In this document: positions 13,804 through 21,130 of the stretch, one piece after another
How the letters are laid out: each line of letters starts with the position of its first letter
Position numbering within the stretch: position 1 is the stretch's first letter
DNA from: Escherichia coli
GTDB taxonomy: Bacteria > Pseudomonadota > Gammaproteobacteria > Enterobacterales > Enterobacteriaceae
Strand: one strand, 5' to 3'
DNA length: 64,000 bases
Assembly (NCBI RefSeq): GCF_003790525.1
Contig: NZ_CP033635.1
Position numbers and translations under genes: made by a program
The notes under the pieces: model-generated
What the model saw: the letters and a program-made list of their open reading frames with translations, nothing else
Told to the model about the DNA's origin: nothing
The model's database searches: none

Positions 13804-13815
13804 ATCGCGCCTCCT

Positions 13816-13858
13816 TTACCTTTAAGGTAATAGTACGCTATTCACCCACAGTCTGCAA
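13816..13858 (-). promoter_or_regulatory. Promoter P_A (-35 TTGCAG at 13853-13858, 17-bp spacer, -10 TACTAT at 13830-13835) with operator copy A (TTACC-TTTAA-GGTAA, 13816..13830)
   Basis: Hexamers and the 15-bp palindrome read directly; the operator abuts the -10 and the RBS. Confidence 0.55.
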
Positions 13859-14761: not shown

Positions 14762-14855
14762 CATATGTGCCTCTGTAGTAACCCGGGACGCCAATCCCGG
14801 CACTGGATTTTGCCAGTGCCCGATTACTATGGCACAAGAGGAGTGCGATGTAAAT

Positions 14856-14898
14856 TTACCGAAAAGGTAATAATAAACACTCTACTTGGTAATTGCAA
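14856..14898 (-). promoter_or_regulatory. Promoter P_B (-35 TTGCAA at 14893-14898, 17-bp spacer, -10 TATTAT at 14870-14875) with operator copy B (TTACC-GAAAA-GGTAA, 14856..14870)
   Basis: Near-consensus sigma70 hexamers with exact 17-bp spacing; palindrome overlaps the -10 and start site. Confidence 0.6.
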
Positions 14899-15198: not shown

Positions 15199-15235
15199 TC
15201 AAATAATTTGTTTGCTATCCAGCACGTTTTGCAAA

Positions 15236-15250
15236 TTACCCGAAAGGTAA
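15236..15250. promoter_or_regulatory. Operator copy C (TTACC-CGAAA-GGTAA) in the divergent region between the 85-aa gene and the tailspike gene, next to a TTGCAA hexamer (15229-15234)
   Basis: Third copy of the 15-bp palindrome; promoter partner hexamers not clearly assignable. Confidence 0.45.
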
Positions 15251-15354
15251 TATCTATTCGTATTTACAGTCTTTCTATCCATATGTGGTTTTTCAGGTAA
15301 TAGAATAACCAGATATGCGGCGCAACGGGTGCTGCGACTATCTGGAGATTTAAC

Positions 15355-17544
15355 ATGACGGTCTCAACCGAAGTTGACCACAACGAATACACCGGTAACG
15401 GCGTTACGACATCATTTCCGTATACCTTCCGTATTTTCAAAAAAACCGACCTGGTTGTTCAGGTGTCTGACCTGAACGGGAACGTAACAGAATTGGTTCT
15501 GGATACCGGTTATAAGGTAACTGGAGCGGGCACTTATAGTGGCGGTGAAGTGGTTCTCCAGTCGCCGCTTGCTGCTGGCTGGCGAATTACGATAGAGCGT
15601 GTGCTTGATGTGGTGCAGGAGACTGATCTTCGCAATCAGGGAAAATTTTTCCCCGAAGTTCATGAAGATGCATTTGACTACCTGACGATGCTGATCCAGC
15701 GATGTTTTGGGTGGTTCAGACGTGCATTGATGAAACCATCTTTGCTTGCAAAATATTACGATGCAAAGCAAAACAAAATTTCTAACCTTGCAGATCCATC
15801 ATTTGAGCAGGACGCTGTAAATAATCGCTCAATGCGTAATTATGTCGATGCTGCAATCGCCGGGGTTGTTGGTGGTTTTGGTTGGTTTATACCGTCAGGA
15901 AGCGGGGCAAGACAACGAACATTTCAAAGCAAAATGAGGGATATAATTTCTCCTTGTGATTACGAAGATAATATTTTTATGATTAAGGAGTTGATATCCA
16001 AAGGCAAAAATGCCGCTGTTTTTAACTCATATTATACTTTTGTTATTACTGTTGGCGAATGGGGTGATTTCCCTACACTCAAAGATGCAATCATTGCAGC
16101 CCAGTCAATGAGACCTATGTGGGATGGTGGTAATGCTTTCTGCGAAATAAGAATTAAGACCGGGCATATTATCAACTATCAAATTGAATTCAGTTCAGGT
16201 GTTGATTTGTCTTGGATTAAAATAACATCAGAAGACTCAGTGGTTTTCTCTGACACTCGTTTGTTTACTAAAATCGTTAGAACGTATTACGAATACAAGT
16301 ATTTATTTTACATTTGCGATGCAGCAAAAAGTCCTGTATTTGCTATTCAGATCGAAGAAAATAGAGATGATAGCGATGTTTGTGCATTTATTGTAACTCA
16401 AAAAGCTGAACTTAATTTCTATCCGTATTCAGGTGCTCGAAAGTTCTACGTTGGAATTCATGGTAGTTTTGGTGCAAAAATTAGTGCATATCATACCGGA
16501 TGTGCTCCTGATGAGGAAAGTGTTGCTGCATATATGCCAGAAGGGTATTACGTATGTGATTTTTCTTATAGCAGATACTCTTCCCTGCAACTGGTAAATA
16601 ATGTCAAGGCATCAATGCCTGTAAGCAAGTTTGAACGGTGCACAGAGAGTACGGTTGCGTCAGTTAATTGTATTTATAATGTTAAAGCAGATTTTCAGGG
16701 GTCAAGTGCAAGCTATTGTTATATAGGATGGAATGTAAGAGATGGTTCAAATGTTAATATACGCGACCATAAAACTATACATTGCTCATATCGTGGATTA
16801 ACCTGCATTCATACAGCATATGTTGATGCAAGACGACATGACGTTGAAGAAAGTGATGCAGAAACAAGTGGTAAAGTCCTTGAACCAAATATTGAAAAAG
16901 GTTTTTATGGATGTGCACTTGGTGTGCGTATTGATGGTGCGGGTTGCGTTGATGTTGCTGGTAATGATATGCGCAATTGTGGAACAGCCGTTAATGCAGA
17001 CACTGGTGCTGTTATTTCAGGAAAGGCTGTAGATATCTCAGGGGCTGAGCTGGGATTTGATTGCCATGCAGGAGCATCTGTTAATTTTCCAAGGCTATGG
17101 GGTACAGATATAAAAAAATTAATGCACCTCCAAGATGGTGTAAGGTTTAACTCTAATATTTGTCATGTATTTGGTGCAAATCCCACAAAAGATATTAGAT
17201 GGATTGATGTAGAGAGATCTGAAGCTTCTTTTATGAATGCAACGCTGGATGCAGATTCAGGATTTATTGCCGACTGTGGTAGTAGGATAACCATTGAAGG
17301 AAGTAAAGTTAAAAACCAAACAATAAGAAGTTTTTTTGGATCATATGTGGCTATAAATAATACTGTTGCTGACAGAACTTATTCAGATATAGCCGATGTT
17401 CCGCAGTTGACTATTAGTGGAGGATCTTTTATTTCTGCTACAGGATATTCTAATTCTGACTCCAGCCCTCTGAGGTTGAGCACAACACGAAATACACTTG
17501 GCGTTGGAGGAGCCATATTTTCAACCAATGGGGAAGTTTCATGA
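15355..17544 (+). CDS. Tailspike / tail fiber protein, 729 aa: conserved N-terminal virion-attachment domain plus divergent C-terminal receptor-binding part
   Basis: N-terminus carries the YTGNGVTT.F.Y.F pattern typical of podovirus tail fiber or tailspike adapters (from memory); C-terminal two thirds are AT-rich and Cys-rich; GGAG RBS 7 nt upstream. Confidence 0.7.
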   Translation: MTVSTEVDHNEYTGNGVTTSFPYTFRIFKKTDLVVQVSDLNGNVTELVLDTGYKVTGAGTYSGGEVVLQSPLAAGWRITIERVLDVVQETDLRNQGKFFPEVHEDAFDYLTMLIQRCFGWFRRALMKPSLLAKYYDAKQNKISNLADPSFEQDAVNNRSMRNYVDAAIAGVVGGFGWFIPSGSGARQRTFQSKMRDIISPCDYEDNIFMIKELISKGKNAAVFNSYYTFVITVGEWGDFPTLKDAIIAAQSMRPMWDGGNAFCEIRIKTGHIINYQIEFSSGVDLSWIKITSEDSVVFSDTRLFTKIVRTYYEYKYLFYICDAAKSPVFAIQIEENRDDSDVCAFIVTQKAELNFYPYSGARKFYVGIHGSFGAKISAYHTGCAPDEESVAAYMPEGYYVCDFSYSRYSSLQLVNNVKASMPVSKFERCTESTVASVNCIYNVKADFQGSSASYCYIGWNVRDGSNVNIRDHKTIHCSYRGLTCIHTAYVDARRHDVEESDAETSGKVLEPNIEKGFYGCALGVRIDGAGCVDVAGNDMRNCGTAVNADTGAVISGKAVDISGAELGFDCHAGASVNFPRLWGTDIKKLMHLQDGVRFNSNICHVFGANPTKDIRWIDVERSEASFMNATLDADSGFIADCGSRITIEGSKVKNQTIRSFFGSYVAINNTVADRTYSDIADVPQLTISGGSFISATGYSNSDSSPLRLSTTRNTLGVGGAIFSTNGEVS

Positions 17545-17837
17545 TTAAGAGCATTGATGTCACTCCATTTCTTCACTCGCTTTGCGCTTTTGCGGCTCAG
17601 GTACTGGTTGGTATTTTTACCGGAAACTGGGCTTACGGTGCGATAGCCGGTTGTACGTTCTTCATTGCGCGTGAACACACCCAGGCAGAATATCGCTGGA
17701 TAGAAAAGTTTGGGAAAGGGAAACGTATCAACATGCCGTGGTGGGGAGGTTTTGATCCACGCGTGTGGGATGTGGGAAGTCTGTTGGATTTTGCTGTTCC
17801 TGTTGTTTTTTGTTTTTGTGTTTATTTCTCTATTTGA
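17541..17837 (+). CDS. Small membrane protein (98 aa, two hydrophobic helices)
   Basis: ATGA overlap with the tailspike stop; hydrophobic stretches in translation. Confidence 0.5.
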   Translation: MIKSIDVTPFLHSLCAFAAQVLVGIFTGNWAYGAIAGCTFFIAREHTQAEYRWIEKFGKGKRINMPWWGGFDPRVWDVGSLLDFAVPVVFCFCVYFSI

Positions 17838-18039
17838 CTGCTACCGCGCCATTAAATGGTGCGGTATTCAACCTGCTCTTCACTGTTTGTTTCTTCAGAG
17901 TCATGTAAAAGGTGAGCTTTATTCTCGGCATGAAAAACAGGGAATTGACGATGTTAAAGTAACAAAAAACCATAAATGGTTTATTATGCGTAATGCTTTA
18001 CTGTTCAGGAGGTTGTTATGCATATAAACGGTGGAAAAC

Positions 18040-18444
18040 ATGTCAGCTCAACTAACCAGTGAAACTTTAAATCAGTGGCTTAGCATGAGTTCTCTGGCGG
18101 CGGTGATAGCAGGAGTTCCTCCTGAGGTTGCTTTGGGTGCTTTGGCTGGAGCGGTAATTTTTGTTACCTCTGCAGTAGAGTACCCCATCCGTCGCCGGGT
18201 GCTCCTGTCGATGCTCAGCTTTCTTTGCGGCCTTCTCTTTTACAAACCAGCAGCATCAATTCTTATCGGCATAGCCAGCCTGATCCCTACCATCACGCAG
18301 GACTCTTTTGAAAAAGGGATTGTTTTCTCTGCAGGCGCATTCGTGTCAGCAATTGTCGCTGTGCGTATTGGTATATGGCTCTATCACCGTTCCGATAATC
18401 CACGCGAGTTAATTCCGGGGAGAAAAGACGATGGTAACGCATGA
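18040..18444 (+). CDS. Membrane protein, holin or antiholin candidate (in-frame alternative start GTG 18031)
   Basis: Several predicted transmembrane stretches; two in-frame starts three codons apart (GTG-GAA-AAC-ATG). Confidence 0.45.
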   Translation: MSAQLTSETLNQWLSMSSLAAVIAGVPPEVALGALAGAVIFVTSAVEYPIRRRVLLSMLSFLCGLLFYKPAASILIGIASLIPTITQDSFEKGIVFSAGAFVSAIVAVRIGIWLYHRSDNPRELIPGRKDDGNA

Positions 18445-18739
18445 GTTTTTTTTGCTTATCACCAATGCAGTTATTTGCACTGGCATAGCAATTCGCGTTG
18501 TCACATTCCGGCGTAACGGCTCTCAACACCGAAGGTGGGGAGGATGGCTTGCTTATTTCCTGATTGTTGCTGCGGCCAGTATTCCTGTTCGTGTCGCCTA
18601 TGCAATCTGGTTACGTACGCCAATGGCTGTGGATTTATCTGAGGTCATTATCAACGCTGTCATGCTAGCTGCGGTTATTAAAACGCGCGGTAACGTCGTT
18701 CAAATTTTCAAAGTATCGAGGTCTAAACATGGAGATTAA
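18431..18739 (+). CDS. Holin candidate (102 aa, 2-3 transmembrane helices) immediately upstream of the endolysin
   Basis: Position and hydrophobicity pattern; overlaps neighbours at both ends. Confidence 0.5.
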
Positions 18740-19358
18740 ACAATTCCAGCGAGCTGCTGGTATCAGCGAGGCACTGGCCGCACGCTGGTTCTCGCATATA
18801 ACTTCTGCGATGAAAGAGTTTGGTATCAGCAAACCAGAAGATCAGGCTATGTTTATTGCTCAGGTCGGGCATGAGTCTGGAGGCTTCACCCGGTTGCAGG
18901 AGAATTTCAACTACAGCGTCAGCGGACTGGCTAACTTTGTTCGGGCTGGGCGTCTCACTCAGGGACAGGCCAACGCATTGGGGCGACGTGCAGGCGAACC
19001 ACCATTGCCACTTGAGCGCCAGAGAGCGATTGCCAATCTGGTGTACAGCAAACGCATGGGGAACAATGCCCCTGGTGATGGCTGGAACTACCGTGGGCGC
19101 GGGCTTATCCAGGTTACCGGTTTGAATAACTATCGTGACTGTGGAAACGGTCTTAAGGTTGACCTGCTGGAGAGTCCTGAACTGCTGGCGCAGGACGAAT
19201 ACGCGGCTCGTAGCGCGGCGTGGTTCTTTGCCAGCAAAGGATGCATGAAGTATACCGGCGATATTGCACGTGTAACTCTGATTATCAATGGTGGCCGGAA
19301 CGGCATCGACGACCGGCGCGCGCGATACATCAATGCCAGTAAGGTGCTGGCGGTATGA
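18729..19358 (+). CDS. Endolysin, glycoside hydrolase family 19 (chitinase-like) type
   Basis: Motifs [18 protein letters not shown] and NYRD read in the translation, recalled as GH19-type phage lysozyme signatures; position between holin and Rz. Confidence 0.8.
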
Positions 19359-19837
19359 TCTGGGCATTCGTAAAAGCATACTGGAAACAGTTGGTTATCA
19401 TGGCGATGCTTGCTGTTCTGGTCATATCAGGAGTTGTAGCCTGGAATGCACACGGTAGTCGTCAGTACGACGCCGGGTATGCGCAGGCGGAAGAAGACCG
19501 CAAAGACGAAGAAGACAAAGTTCGTCAGTACTACGAACAGGAGAAAGTGACCAATGAACGTGAAGCGCAGCAAAGAATCGACCAGGCGCGCAATGATGCT
19601 CTTGATGCTGCCGCTCGCGCTGGCAGGTTGCAGCAACAACTCTTTGCCATCCGTGAGCAGCTCAGGCAGTATAACGCCATTGTCGGCGCTGGGACGTCAG
19701 CCGCAGACACCGGAGTTTTGCTTGCCGACGTGCTCAGCAAATCTCTCGAGAGAAACAGACAACTGGCAGAGTATGCTGACCGGGCAGCCGAAGCCGGAAG
19801 AGTCTGCGAAAAACAGTACGACACCCTGACCAGATAG
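19355..19837 (+). CDS. Rz-like i-spanin (N-terminal transmembrane helix, coiled-coil periplasmic domain)
   Basis: ATGA overlap with endolysin stop; typical Rz architecture. Confidence 0.7.
19554..19829 (+). CDS. Rz1-like o-spanin lipoprotein, fully embedded in the Rz gene in the +1 frame
   Basis: Signal peptide ending in lipobox LAGC, Pro-rich mature part, embedded arrangement as in lambda Rz/Rz1 (established knowledge). Confidence 0.65.
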   Translation: MNVKRSKESTRRAMMLLMLPLALAGCSNNSLPSVSSSGSITPLSALGRQPQTPEFCLPTCSANLSRETDNWQSMLTGQPKPEESAKNSTTP

Positions 19838-19992
19838 CATGGTATTTTTCATGGCACTGATTTCCGGTGACGGTATATAAAACGGTACGGGAAAAGTTGA
19901 GCTTTGGAAAAATGTTATCACTCAATTGGTTATGGTGTCCGTGAATAATTGAGTGGGAATGATTTTGATCCCTGCACTATGAATGAACAAAA

Positions 19993-20056: not shown

Positions 20057-20596
20057 TTAGTTAAACCAGCTGTCCGATTTGTTCTCTTCTGCTTTGCCCA
20101 CGCTTTTCATCAGATCGCGACCGCCTTCAGTCATATTTCTGTTTGCGTCAGCTTCAGATTGCACCACATCGGTTTGCGCAGCTTTGTGCTTCAGTTCCTG
20201 ATCGATAAATTCGTTTTCTCGCTTAACGCGGGCTTCTTCTTTCGCCAGCGCCAGTTTTTGTTTCTGAATCTCTAAGCTGCGTAGCTCATCTTCATAACTT
20301 TGATCGCGTTTTTTGTCCGCAGTGGCTTCGGCGTCCAGTTTATCCTGACGAGCTTTCTTATTCGCTGCTGCCGTTGCCGCTCTTTTATTAGCCGCGGCCT
20401 GGGCGTTTGCGCGACGTTGCTTCTCTTGCTGGATTTCCCTGTTGCGCTCCGCGACCCATTCGTCATGCTGCCTTTGCTCTTCATTTTTACCTTGCTGTTC
20501 CGCTTCTGCGACAGCAGAGAGTTGATCCTGCAATGATGAGGCGATAGCCGGATAGCTTAAGGAGGCTAAGATGGCGCAAAGAAAAACTTTCTTCAT
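20057..20596 (-). CDS. yfgI: YfgI, periplasmic protein (179 aa)
   Basis: Signal peptide plus Lys/Glu/Ala-rich repeats; matches recalled K-12 protein and gene order. Confidence 0.85.
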   Translation of the reverse strand: MKKVFLCAILASLSYPAIASSLQDQLSAVAEAEQQGKNEEQRQHDEWVAERNREIQQEKQRRANAQAAANKRAATAAANKKARQDKLDAEATADKKRDQSYEDELRSLEIQKQKLALAKEEARVKRENEFIDQELKHKAAQTDVVQSEADANRNMTEGGRDLMKSVGKAEENKSDSWFN

Positions 20597-20611
20597 GACT
20601 CCTCCTGATTA

Positions 20612-21130
20612 TTAGCTCTTTTCAGGACATTTGGTATTTGGCTGAATACGCGTTTCGTTATACGTCGTGGTAATAACAACGGCTAAACCTGTCGTAAACT
20701 GGCACTCTTTACCCACCTGGGTGGAGGTATACACTTTGGTGCCTTCCTTATACGTTAGAGAAACACCTTCCACTAAGGTTTTATCATTCACCATAGAACC
20801 CGCTGCCGCGCCAACAGCTCCGCCGCCAACTGCACCTGCCGTCGTTCCGGAATTGCTGCCAGACCCCACGTTGTGGCCGATTACACCGCCAGCGACTGCA
20901 CCAATAAGTGCGCCGAAGGCTTGTGCGTTTCGTTTATTTTGGGAGTTGTCTACGGCAACTTTTGCGGGAAGAATGGAAATAATATTAACGGTTTTAGTTT
21001 CTTGTTTGGTATTCAGTTGATCGGTTTGATAAACATCGGCGGCATGATCATCAGCATTTGACTGGCATCCTGCCAGAGTGAATGACGCTAACATTGCCAC
21101 AGGCAGAAGACATTTTTTAAATTTCATCAC
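20612..21130 (-). CDS. yfgH: YfgH, glycine-zipper outer-membrane lipoprotein (172 aa)
   Basis: Lipobox LAGC and Gly-rich zipper in translation; K-12 gene order. Confidence 0.85.
   Translation of the reverse strand: MMKFKKCLLPVAMLASFTLAGCQSNADDHAADVYQTDQLNTKQETKTVNIISILPAKVAVDNSQNKRNAQAFGALIGAVAGGVIGHNVGSGSNSGTTAGAVGGGAVGAAAGSMVNDKTLVEGVSLTYKEGTKVYTSTQVGKECQFTTGLAVVITTTYNETRIQPNTKCPEKS

What the first reader, a model, noticed from the sequence alone, without database searches (positions are those of the whole stretch)
18007..18062. Strong RBS feeds a 14-codon upstream ORF that overlaps two in-frame starts of the first lysis membrane protein
Seen: AGGAGG (18007-18012) is 5 nt from ATG 18018, which opens a 14-aa frame (MHINGGKHVSSTNQ) ending at 18062. 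The membrane protein has GTG 18031 and ATG 18040 in another frame, giving forms that differ by the N-terminal residues M-E-N. Established knowledge: lambda S uses a dual-start motif to make holin and antiholin. Inference: translational coupling or dual-start control of lysis timing.
Basis: partly seen in the sequence, partly recalled or inferred. Interest (0 to 1): 0.3.

Follow-up and report, generated by a model that had tools for sequence, protein, structure and literature searches.

The report
Hairpin-masked leader mini-ORF before prophage lysis genes
The strong ribosome-binding site and 14-codon mini-ORF in front of the first lysis membrane gene of this epsilon15/phiV10-like prophage are real, are conserved across related phages and lie inside a conserved RNA hairpin. 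They most likely gate and feed translation of the lysis genes, whereas the proposed lambda-style dual start is not supported.

Summary
The locus is the leader of the lysis operon (two holin-like proteins, GH19 endolysin, Rz/Rz1) of a Uetakevirus-type prophage inserted next to guaA/yfgI.

**Conservation.** In 98 distinct leader variants from 168 related loci (E. coli, Salmonella, Klebsiella, Enterobacter phages), 90 keep a strong Shine-Dalgarno sequence (SD) plus ATG 22-23 nt upstream of the gene's ATG.
- The mini-ORF occurs in two different frames and in lengths of 1-17 codons.
- What is conserved is the initiation site, not the peptide.

**Hairpin.** This site is buried in the 3' arm of a conserved, plus-strand-specific RNA hairpin.
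- Window coordinates are 17976-18032. It is weak here (-17 kcal/mol) but -30 to -35 kcal/mol in epsilon15 and Klebsiella types.
- The epsilon15 RefSeq record already labels it a predicted RNase III site.

**Real gene start.** It is ATG 18040. GTG 18031 is simply part of that start's weak SD, GGTGG. The residues between the two codons vary (EN, VI, VT and others) and are never Lys or Arg.

**Best model.** Hairpin-gated coupling, in which ribosomes loaded at the mini-ORF deliver translation to a poorly accessible gene start. This part is inferred, not shown.

Modest interest: a new variant of known leader-ORF/hairpin control.

The parts
17971..17981 (+). Conserved motif CATAAATGGTT at the 5' foot of the leader hairpin. 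It is the first conserved sequence of the lysis module.
   Evidence: The same motif (CATATGTGGTT) lies upstream of the tailspike gene in the window (15280-15290) and upstream of gp3 and the lysis genes in epsilon15. Sequences upstream of it are unrelated between phage groups.
17976..18032 (+). Leader RNA hairpin 1. The 5' arm is 17976-18002, the loop 18003-18006 and the 3' arm 18007-18032. It pairs all six bases of the mini-ORF SD, the mini-ORF ATG and two bases of the gene's SD.
   Evidence: MFE -17.4 kcal/mol and z = 0.07 in the window; -34 to -41 kcal/mol and z -4.5 to -5.7 in the epsilon15, phiV10, Klebsiella and Enterobacter homologues; 91.6% of cells paired against 35-56% in slid controls, with 3 pairs showing compensatory change; more stable on the + strand than the - strand in 38/38 variants. 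The homologous stretch in epsilon15 RefSeq is annotated 'RNaseIII, mRNA processing'.
17982..17994 (+). Two -10-like hexamers inside the 5' arm: TATTAT at 17982-17987 and CGTAAT at 17989-17994. The second aligns with TATGAT/TATAAT of the epsilon15 and phiV10 types.
   Evidence: One search finds GTAACA-17-TATTAT (9/12; one such hit is expected by chance). Whether either hexamer is a promoter element is unresolved.
18007..18012 (+). Shine-Dalgarno AGGAGG of the mini-ORF.
   Evidence: The anti-SD duplex is -11.0 kcal/mol. SD-like sequence is conserved as GGAGG, GGGGG, GTGGG or GGAGA. One SD position shows a compensatory C-G to U-A change with its hairpin partner (columns 30/43).
18018..18062 (+). 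Leader mini-ORF: 14 codons (MHINGGKHVSSTNQ) plus TGA.
   Evidence: An ATG lies at -22/-23 in 91 of 98 leader variants. Of these, 81 are in the other frame (12 codons, TAA at +13) and 10 are in this frame. The G of the ATG is held as a G.U wobble in 78 of 91 variants.
18030..18034 (+). Weak Shine-Dalgarno GGTGG of the gene's ATG, 5 nt upstream of it. It contains the 'GTG 18031' of the finding.
   Evidence: The anti-SD duplex is -5.1 kcal/mol. Phage Tyrion annotates the homologous GGTGGT as the ribosome-binding site.
18040..18444 (+). First lysis membrane protein, 134 aa: a homologue of epsilon15 gp23 / phiV10 p27, with about 3 hydrophobic segments and a charged C-terminus.
   Evidence: Pfam PF16931 Phage_holin_8, E = 4.4e-12. 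Hydropathy. Annotated as a 405-nt CDS starting at the ATG in the eight records opened.
18052..18083 (+). Hairpin 2 inside the first codons of the gene (extended form 18046-18090). Its 5' arm carries both mini-ORF stop codons: the TAA of CTAACC and the TGA of AGTGA.
   Evidence: the same fold is predicted in most of the 71 variants. The synonymous positions CTA (a rare Leu codon) and CTT are almost invariant. Opening -13..+20 of the gene start costs a median 16.3 kcal/mol. The fold is not significant by energy alone (z -0.46).
18431..18739 (+). Second holin-like membrane protein, 102 aa.
   Evidence: Pfam PF05449 Phage_holin_3_7, E = 5e-27. Annotated 'holin' in epsilon15 and phiV10.
18729..19358 (+). 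Endolysin, glycoside hydrolase family 19.
   Evidence: Pfam PF00182. Annotated endolysin in related phages.
19355..19837 (+). Rz-like spanin (DUF2514) with an embedded Rz1-like lipoprotein frame at 19554-19829.
   Evidence: Pfam PF10721, E = 9e-43. The embedded ORF carries LALAGC. The same arrangement is annotated in epsilon15 and phiV10.

Best explanation
The finding is the translation-control leader of the lysis operon of an epsilon15/phiV10-like prophage.

**Shown**
- The first lysis membrane gene starts at ATG 18040, behind a weak SD (GGTGG).
- Its first about 45 nt fold into a second hairpin, so its own initiation site is poor.
- Twenty-two nt upstream lies a mini-ORF with a strong SD. 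Its SD and ATG, but not its peptide, frame or length, are conserved.
- This strong initiation site is base-paired within a conserved plus-strand RNA hairpin. The 5' arm of that hairpin overlaps a promoter-like motif.

**Inferred mechanism**
1. While the full hairpin is present, neither the mini-ORF nor the gene is translated efficiently.
2. The strong SD becomes exposed when the 5' arm is absent or removed. Two routes are possible: a transcript that starts inside the hairpin, as in IS10 fold-back inhibition, or RNase III cleavage as annotated for epsilon15.
3. Ribosomes then translate the mini-ORF across the gene's SD and ATG and melt hairpin 2.
4. They terminate 13-20 nt inside the gene and re-initiate at ATG 18040, or clear the way for new 30S subunits to initiate there.

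The mini-ORF thus acts as a ribosome-loading cistron, and the hairpin decides which transcripts can express the lethal lysis proteins. In this particular prophage the hairpin is weak, so the gate is probably leaky or largely open.
For: **Conservation of the initiation site**
- 90 of 98 leader variants keep SD plus ATG at -22/-23. They do so in two frames and with lengths of 1, 6, 12, 14 and 17 codons.
- The SD varies in sequence but stays SD-like, and always lies on the 3' side of the hairpin, 5-7 nt before the ATG.
- The G of the ATG is kept as a G.U wobble in 78 of 91 variants, although A-U would pair better. Where the pair changes, it is the 5' partner that changes, U to C.

**Masking is itself selected**
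- The hairpin is kept in the great majority of variants and is 91.6% paired.
- Compensatory changes include one at an SD position and A-U to G-C at columns 19/61.
- It is more stable on the + strand than the - strand in 38/38 variants, mean -21.9 against -9.4 kcal/mol.

**Accessibility**
- Opening the mini-ORF start costs a median 19.6 kcal/mol in the full leader (9.7 in the window) but about 3.7 when the 5' arm is missing.
- The gene's own start costs a median 16.3 kcal/mol to open and has a weak SD.

**Correlated loss**
- The L069 type lost the ATG (now ATA) and the SD, kept the hairpin base, and acquired a strong AGGAG SD on the gene together with a more open start.

**Geometry**
- The mini-ORF stop lies within -20 to +28 nt of the gene's ATG in every variant. 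From my own knowledge, this is within the range reported for termination-reinitiation (Adhin and van Duin 1990; MS2 coat-lysis coupling).
Against: - There is no experimental evidence that ATG 18018 is used.
- In epsilon15- and Klebsiella-type leaders the site is locked in a -30 to -35 kcal/mol hairpin. It would be silent unless the hairpin is removed, and neither the transcription start nor RNase III cleavage is known.
- The ATG could partly be a by-product of complementarity to the conserved TATGAT of the 5' arm.
- Three mini-ORF-less lineages (L036, L038, L048) show no strengthening of the gene's SD.
- The loci are related prophages, so the counts are not independent events.
- In the window itself the hairpin is no more stable than shuffled sequence (z = 0.07).
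- A translating ribosome also occludes the gene start, so the net effect could be negative rather than positive.
Confidence: 0.45

Rival explanations
1. Hairpin only. The functional element is the conserved leader hairpin, acting as an RNase III processing site, a 5' stabiliser, or a fold-back inhibitor that masks the gene's SD foot. The SD-like run and the ATG are structural by-products, and the mini-ORF is not translated to any effect.
For: - The hairpin is more widely kept than the mini-ORF. The L069/L077 type keeps the stem base with no SD or ATG.
- The ATG pairs with the invariant TAT of the 5' arm, so an ATA/ATG triplet is expected there.
- The site is buried at 18-25 kcal/mol in most lineages.
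- Similar motif-plus-hairpin leaders precede the tailspike gene and epsilon15 gp3 without any mini-ORF.
- The epsilon15 annotators saw only an RNase III site.
Against: - It does not explain why the purine-rich SD-like strand is always on the 3' side at 5-7 nt from the ATG.
- It does not explain why the 3' strand departs from perfect complementarity towards GGAGG/GGGGG.
- It does not explain why a weaker G.U pair is held at the G of the ATG in 78 of 91 variants.
- It does not explain why the L069 type gained a strong SD on the gene when it lost the upstream site.
Confidence: 0.28
2. Repressive mini-ORF. Ribosomes starting at the strong upstream site run over the gene's SD and ATG and out-compete it. 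This keeps the first holin-like protein low relative to the second, setting a ratio or delay.
For: - The mini-ORF completely overlaps the gene's initiation region.
- The upstream SD is much stronger than the gene's SD.
- Two holin-like proteins in one cassette suggest that their ratio could matter.
Against: - The lineage that lost the mini-ORF strengthened the gene's SD rather than weakening it (L069). This fits loss of an activator better than loss of a repressor.
- The gene's start is intrinsically poor (weak SD, 16 kcal/mol to open), so extra repression seems unnecessary.
- Masking a repressor's start site in the hairpin would increase lysis-gene expression from read-through RNA, which is the opposite of a safety device.
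Confidence: 0.13
3. Lambda-type dual start. GTG 18031 and ATG 18040 give a 137-aa antiholin and a 134-aa holin.
For: - The two codons are in frame and three codons apart.
- An in-frame GTG at -9 is present in 91 of 98 variants, and nine also have an in-frame ATG at -12.
Against: - The GTG is the core of the SD GGTGG and disappears when the SD is AGGAG.
- No SD serves it; AGGAGG lies 18 nt upstream.
- The extension is variable and uncharged or acidic, never Lys or Arg. The known antiholin forms require an added positive charge.
- A long hydrophilic N-terminus precedes the first hydrophobic segment.
- The eight annotated records opened all use the ATG.
Confidence: 0.04
4. Chance: an SD-like hexamer and an ATG that happen to lie upstream of a gene.
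For: AGGAGG-N4-8-ATG is expected 1.67 times per window by chance. About half of random 14-codon out-of-frame readings hit a stop.
Against: Conservation in 90 of 98 variants across four host genera, with variable surrounding bases.
Confidence: 0.03

Closest known systems
Lambda S / phage 21 S / P22 gene 13 dual-start holin-antiholin with the sdi stem-loop
   Same: A phage lysis membrane gene whose translation start region carries an upstream RNA structure and more than one start-like codon. The goal is control of lysis.
   Different: - Here the second start codon belongs to a separate out-of-frame mini-ORF 22 nt upstream, not to an in-frame extension.
- The in-frame GTG is just the SD.
- The extension has no Lys or Arg.
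- The hairpin is about 25 bp and masks the upstream site rather than tuning the choice between two adjacent starts.
IS10/Tn10 (and IS50) fold-back inhibition of transposase translation from read-through transcripts (from my own knowledge: Davis, Simons and Kleckner 1985)
   Same: A hairpin whose 5' arm lies at or upstream of the element's own promoter and whose 3' arm covers the ribosome-binding site. Only transcripts that start inside the hairpin would be translatable. It protects against expression from outside transcription.
   Different: - The transcription start is not mapped here, so the key feature is untested.
- The masked site is a leader mini-ORF rather than the gene itself.
- The hairpin is weakest in the lineage (this window) where co-directional upstream genes make read-through most likely.
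hok/mok/sok type I toxin-antitoxin loci
   Same: A small membrane toxin whose translation depends on an overlapping upstream reading frame (mok). The start site of that frame is sequestered by mRNA folding, and RNase III is involved.
   Different: No antisense promoter or sok-like RNA was found. There is no sequence relationship. The element here lies in a late lysis operon, not a stand-alone addiction module.
MS2 coat-lysis coupling and bacterial termination-reinitiation (from my own knowledge: Adhin and van Duin 1990)
   Same: A lysis gene with a poor, structured start that is reached by ribosomes terminating a short distance away on an overlapping frame.
   Different: The upstream frame here is a dedicated 1-17 codon leader ORF with its own strong SD. 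It is not a major structural gene.
RNase III-processed leaders of phage genes (lambda N leader, T7 early mRNAs) and Mu Com-mom translational activation
   Same: A long leader hairpin next to or covering a start site. Cleavage or protein binding changes translation.
   Different: Cleavage or a binding protein is only predicted here (an in-silico annotation in the epsilon15 record). No mini-ORF is involved in those systems.

Membership tests
Lambda-type dual-start holin/antiholin | Two in-frame start codons 1-3 codons apart at the 5' end of the holin gene | tested here: met
   GTG 18031 and ATG 18040 are in frame. The GTG, however, is part of the SD GGTGG.
Lambda-type dual-start holin/antiholin | The longer form carries an extra positively charged residue (Lys or Arg) at the N-terminus | tested here: not met
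   The extension is M-E-N here. Across 98 variants it is VI, VT, VA, EN, VEN, VF and others, never K or R. The requirement is stated in PMC9636201.
Lambda-type dual-start holin/antiholin | Each start is served by a ribosome-binding site, with the choice tuned by an adjacent structure | tested here: not met
   No SD lies within 5-13 nt upstream of the GTG, and AGGAGG is 18 nt away. Variants with an AGGAG SD lack any in-frame alternative start.
Lambda-type dual-start holin/antiholin | The N-terminus is immediately followed by a transmembrane segment whose topology the extra charge controls | tested here: not met
   About 17 hydrophilic residues carrying one Glu precede the first hydrophobic segment. 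This rests on simple hydropathy only.
Pfam PF16931 Phage_holin_8 (putative holin) | Match above the curated gathering score | tested here: met
   46.6 bits against a cutoff of 26.4, E = 4.4e-12. Holin function of this family has not been tested for this protein.
Leader-ORF translational coupling (termination-reinitiation or structure melting) | Conserved SD plus start codon of a short upstream ORF, independent of the peptide sequence | tested here: met
   90 of 98 variants, in two frames and five lengths.
Leader-ORF translational coupling (termination-reinitiation or structure melting) | The upstream ORF's stop lies close to or overlaps the downstream start | tested here: met
   Stop positions relative to the gene's ATG: +13 in 78 variants, +20 in 10, and -5, -20 and +28 in one each.
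Leader-ORF translational coupling (termination-reinitiation or structure melting) | The downstream start is intrinsically weak or structured | tested here: met
   The gene's SD gives -5.1 to -5.6 kcal/mol against -10.3 for the upstream SD. Opening -13..+20 costs a median 16.3 kcal/mol.
Leader-ORF translational coupling (termination-reinitiation or structure melting) | Downstream translation depends on upstream translation | not testable with these tools
   This needs reporter fusions, toeprinting or ribosome profiling.
IS10-type fold-back inhibition | The 3' arm of an RNA hairpin covers the ribosome-binding site | tested here: met
   All six SD bases and the ATG of the mini-ORF are paired, as are 2-3 bases of the gene's SD.
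IS10-type fold-back inhibition | The element's own transcript starts inside the hairpin, so it lacks the 5' arm | tested here: inconclusive
   - A recurrent promoter-like motif, CATATGTGGTT-N7-TA..AT, overlaps the 5' arm.
- Conservation begins only about 10-20 nt upstream of the hairpin.
- The window's own hexamer is CGTAAT, a poor -10.
- No transcription-start data exist.
RNase III processing site | About two turns (20 bp or more) of mostly regular double-stranded RNA | tested here: met
   24-27 pairs in the epsilon15 and Klebsiella types. The window version has two bulges and many G.U pairs.
RNase III processing site | Cleavage by RNase III in vivo or in vitro | not testable with these tools
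   Only an in-silico annotation exists in NC_004775.2. The epsilon15 genome paper is not held in the library.
hok/mok/sok type I toxin-antitoxin | A cis-encoded antisense RNA with its own promoter overlapping the upstream frame's start site | tested here: not met
   No promoter-like site was found on the minus strand of 17400-18200. There is no Rfam match.

The most novel reading that the evidence does not exclude
The lysis operon of Uetakevirus prophages may be protected by a promoter-complementary fold-back hairpin that masks a dedicated ribosome-loading mini-ORF.

Only transcripts that start at the operon's own late promoter, or that have been cut by RNase III, would expose the strong SD. 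Through coupling, they would then translate the holin-like protein. Any read-through RNA made in the lysogen would stay translationally silent.

This would be an IS10-style safety device combined with mok-style coupling, applied to phage lysis timing. It may be shared in simpler form by the other late leaders of these phages (tailspike, gp3).
Probability: 0.22. Interest if true: 0.55.

Novelty: new variant of a known kind. Interest (0 to 1): 0.35.

Why it matters
Holin expression must stay silent in a lysogen and be precisely dosed late in infection. The known translational controls are the in-frame dual starts of lambda-like phages. A conserved hairpin-masked leader ORF would be a different solution to the same problem, in a widespread prophage family. 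More than a third of complete E. coli genomes carry sequence matching the 904-nt query that spans the upstream ORF, the leader and the first holin-like gene.

It also gives a practical warning for annotation. The mechanical ORF start (GTG 18031) is wrong, and the gene starts at ATG 18040.

The finding is easily testable with reporter fusions in E. coli. It remains a niche regulatory detail, and its mechanism is inferred only from sequence comparison.

Tried and rejected
- **Dual start.** Rejected; see the membership rows.
- **Programmed frameshift from the mini-ORF into the gene.** Rejected because the mini-ORF lies in different frames in different lineages, so no single shift direction is conserved.
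- **Functional small peptide.** Rejected as unsupported. The peptide differs between frames and lengths, and its conserved residues are explained by overlap with the gene's SD and coding sequence.
- **DNA-level palindrome or operator.** Disfavoured. The mismatches are almost all G.U on the plus strand, and the hairpin is 12 kcal/mol weaker on the minus strand on average.
- **SD brought close to ATG 18040 by a small intervening hairpin (T4 gene 38 style).** The palindrome 18012-18029 cannot form a stable hairpin, having 3 A-U pairs around a minimal loop by inspection.
- **Rfam.** No family matched.
- **RNAalifold on the mixed alignment.** It gave no structure because of indels. On a homogeneous subset it recovered only the lower stem, so I specified the structure by hand.
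- **Distant relative.** Hafnia phage yong2 (35% identical holin) has neither the hairpin nor the mini-ORF. The feature is therefore confined to the epsilon15-like lysis module.
- **Literature.** No paper describing a uORF before a holin gene was found. The epsilon15 genome paper (PMC2698709) is not held. The ZX5 paper has no data on this leader.
- **Promoter assignment.** I could not settle where transcription starts.
Full report
**Context**

The window region 15355-19964 is the right end of an epsilon15/phiV10-like (Uetakevirus) prophage.
- Gene order is tailspike (15355-17544), a small membrane ORF (17541-17837), then a lysis cassette:
  - a PF16931 'Phage_holin_8' protein (18040-18444)
  - a PF05449 holin (18431-18739)
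  - a GH19 endolysin (18729-19358)
  - a DUF2514 Rz-like spanin with an embedded Rz1 frame (19355-19837)
- Megablast finds the same cassette in phiV10, epsilon15, SPN1S, TL-2011b, ZX5, Tyrion, BUCT554 and Klebsiella prophages at 77-99% identity.
- The att core reported for phiV10, epsilon15 and ZX5 (PMC9782041) lies at 19948-19964.
- An identical copy in E. coli PD23 is followed by yfgI and yfgH.

**The observation**

- AGGAGG lies at 18007-18012, followed by a 5-nt spacer.
- ATG 18018 opens 14 codons that end with TGA at 18060-18062.
- GTG 18031 and ATG 18040 are in frame, with GAA AAC between them.
- An in-frame TAA at 18025-18027 makes the GTG the first start-like codon after a stop, which is why a mechanical ORF list starts there.

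A strong SD followed by ATG is expected 1.67 times per window by chance. The single occurrence therefore proves nothing by itself.

**Which start does the gene use?**

The eight annotated relatives I opened begin the gene at the ATG, giving a 405-nt CDS: epsilon15, phiV10, EC.W1-9, BUCT554, two Klebsiella phages, Tyrion and a PGAP-annotated E. coli chromosome. Tyrion's authors mark GGTGGT as its ribosome-binding site.
- GTG 18031 is the centre of this GGTGG (18030-18034), which sits 5 nt before the ATG.
- Across 98 distinct leader variants, the in-frame GTG is present whenever the SD is GGTGG-like (91 of 98). It is absent when the SD is AGGAG.
- The residues between it and the Met are VI, VT, VA, EN, VEN, VF and others, never Lys or Arg.
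- The antiholin forms of lambda S and phage 21 S owe their function to an added positive charge (PMC9636201).
- The protein has about 17 hydrophilic residues before its first hydrophobic stretch.

The dual-start reading therefore fails its defining tests.

**Is the mini-ORF more than chance?**

I collected 168 related loci: two scans of viral contigs plus phage records and the window. They give 98 distinct versions of the -75..+60 leader.
- Ninety have an ATG 22 or 23 nt upstream of the gene's ATG, preceded at 5-7 nt by an SD whose duplex with the 16S 3' end is -5.9 kcal/mol or stronger. The mean was -10.3 in the first set, against -5.1 for the gene's own SD.
- The SD varies in sequence (GGAGG, GGGGG, GTGGG, GGAGA) and the spacer varies freely.
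- A 1-nt indel puts the mini-ORF in one frame in 81 variants (12 codons, TAA 13 nt into the gene). It lies in the other frame in 10 variants (14 codons, TGA at +20; the window type).
- phiV10 has 6 codons ending 5 nt before the gene. One variant is ATG-TGA and another has 17 codons.

So the initiation site is conserved, not the peptide, and the stop always falls within about 28 nt of the gene's start.

Seven variants (25 loci) lack the ATG.
- The L069 type reads ATA, has no SD, and has instead a strong AGGAG SD on the gene.
- L048, L036 and L038 show no such compensation.

The leader folds into a long stem-loop.
- In the window it runs from 17976 to 18032.
- It pairs all six SD bases, the mini-ORF ATG and two bases of the gene's SD.
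- It is weak here (-17.4 kcal/mol, z = 0.07).
- In the epsilon15, phiV10, Enterobacter and Klebsiella homologues the same fold has -34 to -41 kcal/mol and z -4.5 to -5.7.
- The epsilon15 RefSeq record labels exactly this stretch 'RNaseIII, mRNA processing', a prediction by its annotators.

On a 25-sequence alignment with the structure given by hand:
- 91.6% of cells are standard pairs, against 35-56% when partners are slid.
- Three pairs show changes on both sides. One is at an SD position, C-G in GGGGG types and U-A in GGAGG types.

Per-sequence folds of 38 variants show a further A-U to G-C exchange.

The stem is rich in G.U pairs and is more stable on the plus strand than the minus strand in 38 of 38 variants, mean -21.9 against -9.4 kcal/mol. 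It is therefore an RNA feature of the sense transcript, not a DNA palindrome.

The G of the mini-ORF ATG is held as a G.U wobble in 78 of 91 variants. Where the pair differs, it is the 5' partner that changed, U to C. This argues that the ATG is selected for itself and not only as a pairing partner.

**Accessibility**

- Opening the mini-ORF start costs 9.7 kcal/mol in the window's full leader and a median 19.6 over all variants. It costs only about 3.7 if the RNA lacks the 5' arm.
- The gene's own start is poor. It has a weak SD and a second predicted hairpin at +13..+45 (window 18052-18083), and a median 16.3 kcal/mol is needed to open -13..+20.
- The 5' arm of that second hairpin carries both mini-ORF stop codons.
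- The synonymous positions involved (CTA, a rare Leu codon, and CTT) are almost invariant. This fits a constraint beyond the protein, although coding constraints confound the argument.

**Where does the transcript start?**

This is unresolved.
- The 5' arm overlaps a motif, CATATGTGGTT-N7-TA..AT. The motif recurs upstream of the tailspike gene (window 15280) and upstream of gp3 and the lysis genes in epsilon15.
- Homology between phage groups begins only 10-20 nt upstream of that motif. In one context a terminator lies just upstream, and in others the neighbouring genes are divergent.
- This suggests the promoter lies inside the conserved module. Late transcripts would then start within the hairpin and lack its 5' arm, the architecture of IS10 fold-back inhibition (from my own knowledge).
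- Against this, the window's own hexamer is CGTAAT.
- The gp3 and tailspike leaders also show motif-plus-hairpin folds (z about -3), which could mean the motif is an RNA element.

Either way, a masked strong start site implies that its use has consequences.

**Most likely mechanism and rivals**

My best account, at about 0.45, is hairpin-gated coupling.
1. The hairpin keeps the strong mini-ORF start closed.
2. When the 5' arm is absent or cleaved, ribosomes load there and read across the gene's weak start.
3. They melt hairpin 2, terminate 13-20 nt inside the gene and re-initiate at ATG 18040.

Rivals:
- The hairpin alone is functional and the mini-ORF is incidental (0.28).
- The mini-ORF represses the gene by occlusion (0.13).
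- The lambda-type dual start (0.04).
- Chance (0.03).

The steps shown are the coordinates, the conservation, the pairing and the energy estimates. Use of ATG 18018, the direction of its effect, RNase III cleavage and the transcription start are all inferred.

**Comparison with known systems, and verdict**

The arrangement works most like a combination of three things:
- leader-ORF coupling (MS2 coat-lysis, mok-hok)
- masking of a start site by a leader hairpin (IS10 fold-back inhibition)
- RNase III-sensitive leaders (lambda N)

It is not a member of the dual-start holin class. I found no Rfam family and no paper describing a uORF before a holin gene in the held library. A distant holin relative in Hafnia phage yong2 lacks the feature.

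I rate it a new variant of a known kind, of modest interest (0.35). It is well conserved and easy to test, but narrow in scope and supported only by comparative sequence evidence.

Noticed in passing
window 15280-15352: The tailspike gene has its own leader. The same CATATGTGGTT motif is followed by a predicted hairpin (-25 kcal/mol, z -3.2) whose 3' arm runs into the tailspike SD (CTGGAG). The epsilon15 gp20 and gp3 leaders look similar, so motif-plus-hairpin leaders may be a general feature of late operons in these phages.
   Followed up: partly
window 13815-13831, 14855-14871, 15235-15251: There are three close matches to the dyad ATTACC-N5-GGTAAT, with 11 matches at 2 mismatches or fewer in the window against 1.6 expected. 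The epsilon15 record annotates the same dyad as predicted repressor-binding sites. One lies about 45 nt upstream of the tailspike leader motif.
   Followed up: no
window 18052-18083 (extended 18046-18090): A second predicted hairpin lies inside the first codons of the holin-like gene. The synonymous positions (rare Leu codon CTA; CTT) are nearly invariant across 71 variants. The L069 type, which lacks the mini-ORF, has a re-registered version of this hairpin.
   Followed up: partly
window 19948-19964 and 20057-21130: The att core ATTGAGTGGGAATGATT marks the prophage's right end. The flanking host genes are yfgI and yfgH, so the prophage sits at the guaA-side attachment site reported for phiV10 and ZX5.
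   Followed up: yes
window 17541-17837: A 98-aa ORF with two hydrophobic segments and no Pfam match lies between the tailspike and the lysis leader. PGAP calls a shorter version (285 nt). No terminator-like site was found between it and the lysis genes, so in this phage type the lysis genes could also be reached by read-through from the tailspike operon.
   Followed up: partly
loci L010, L019, L028, L030, L033, L043, L047, L064 and L036 (position -12 relative to the gene's ATG): A C-to-T change turns ACG GTG into ATG GTG, creating an in-frame ATG four codons upstream of the normal start (MVENM and similar) in 9 of 98 variants. No SD serves it. It also changes a G-C pair at the hairpin base to G.U.
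   Followed up: partly
locus L048 type (11 loci), -75 to -1: This lineage has a replaced leader with neither the long hairpin nor an ATG-initiated mini-ORF. A TTG occupies the homologous position with poor SD spacing, and the gene's SD is weak. It is a natural counter-example worth testing.
   Followed up: no
Klebsiella-type loci (for example L098, L106), about -85 to -75: An upstream TACC(A/G)TTTAT is complementary to TAAACGGTG, which is the hairpin's 3' foot plus the gene's SD. It is predicted to take over this pairing in variants whose GGTTTA foot is mutated. This hints that masking of the gene's SD is also maintained.
   Followed up: no
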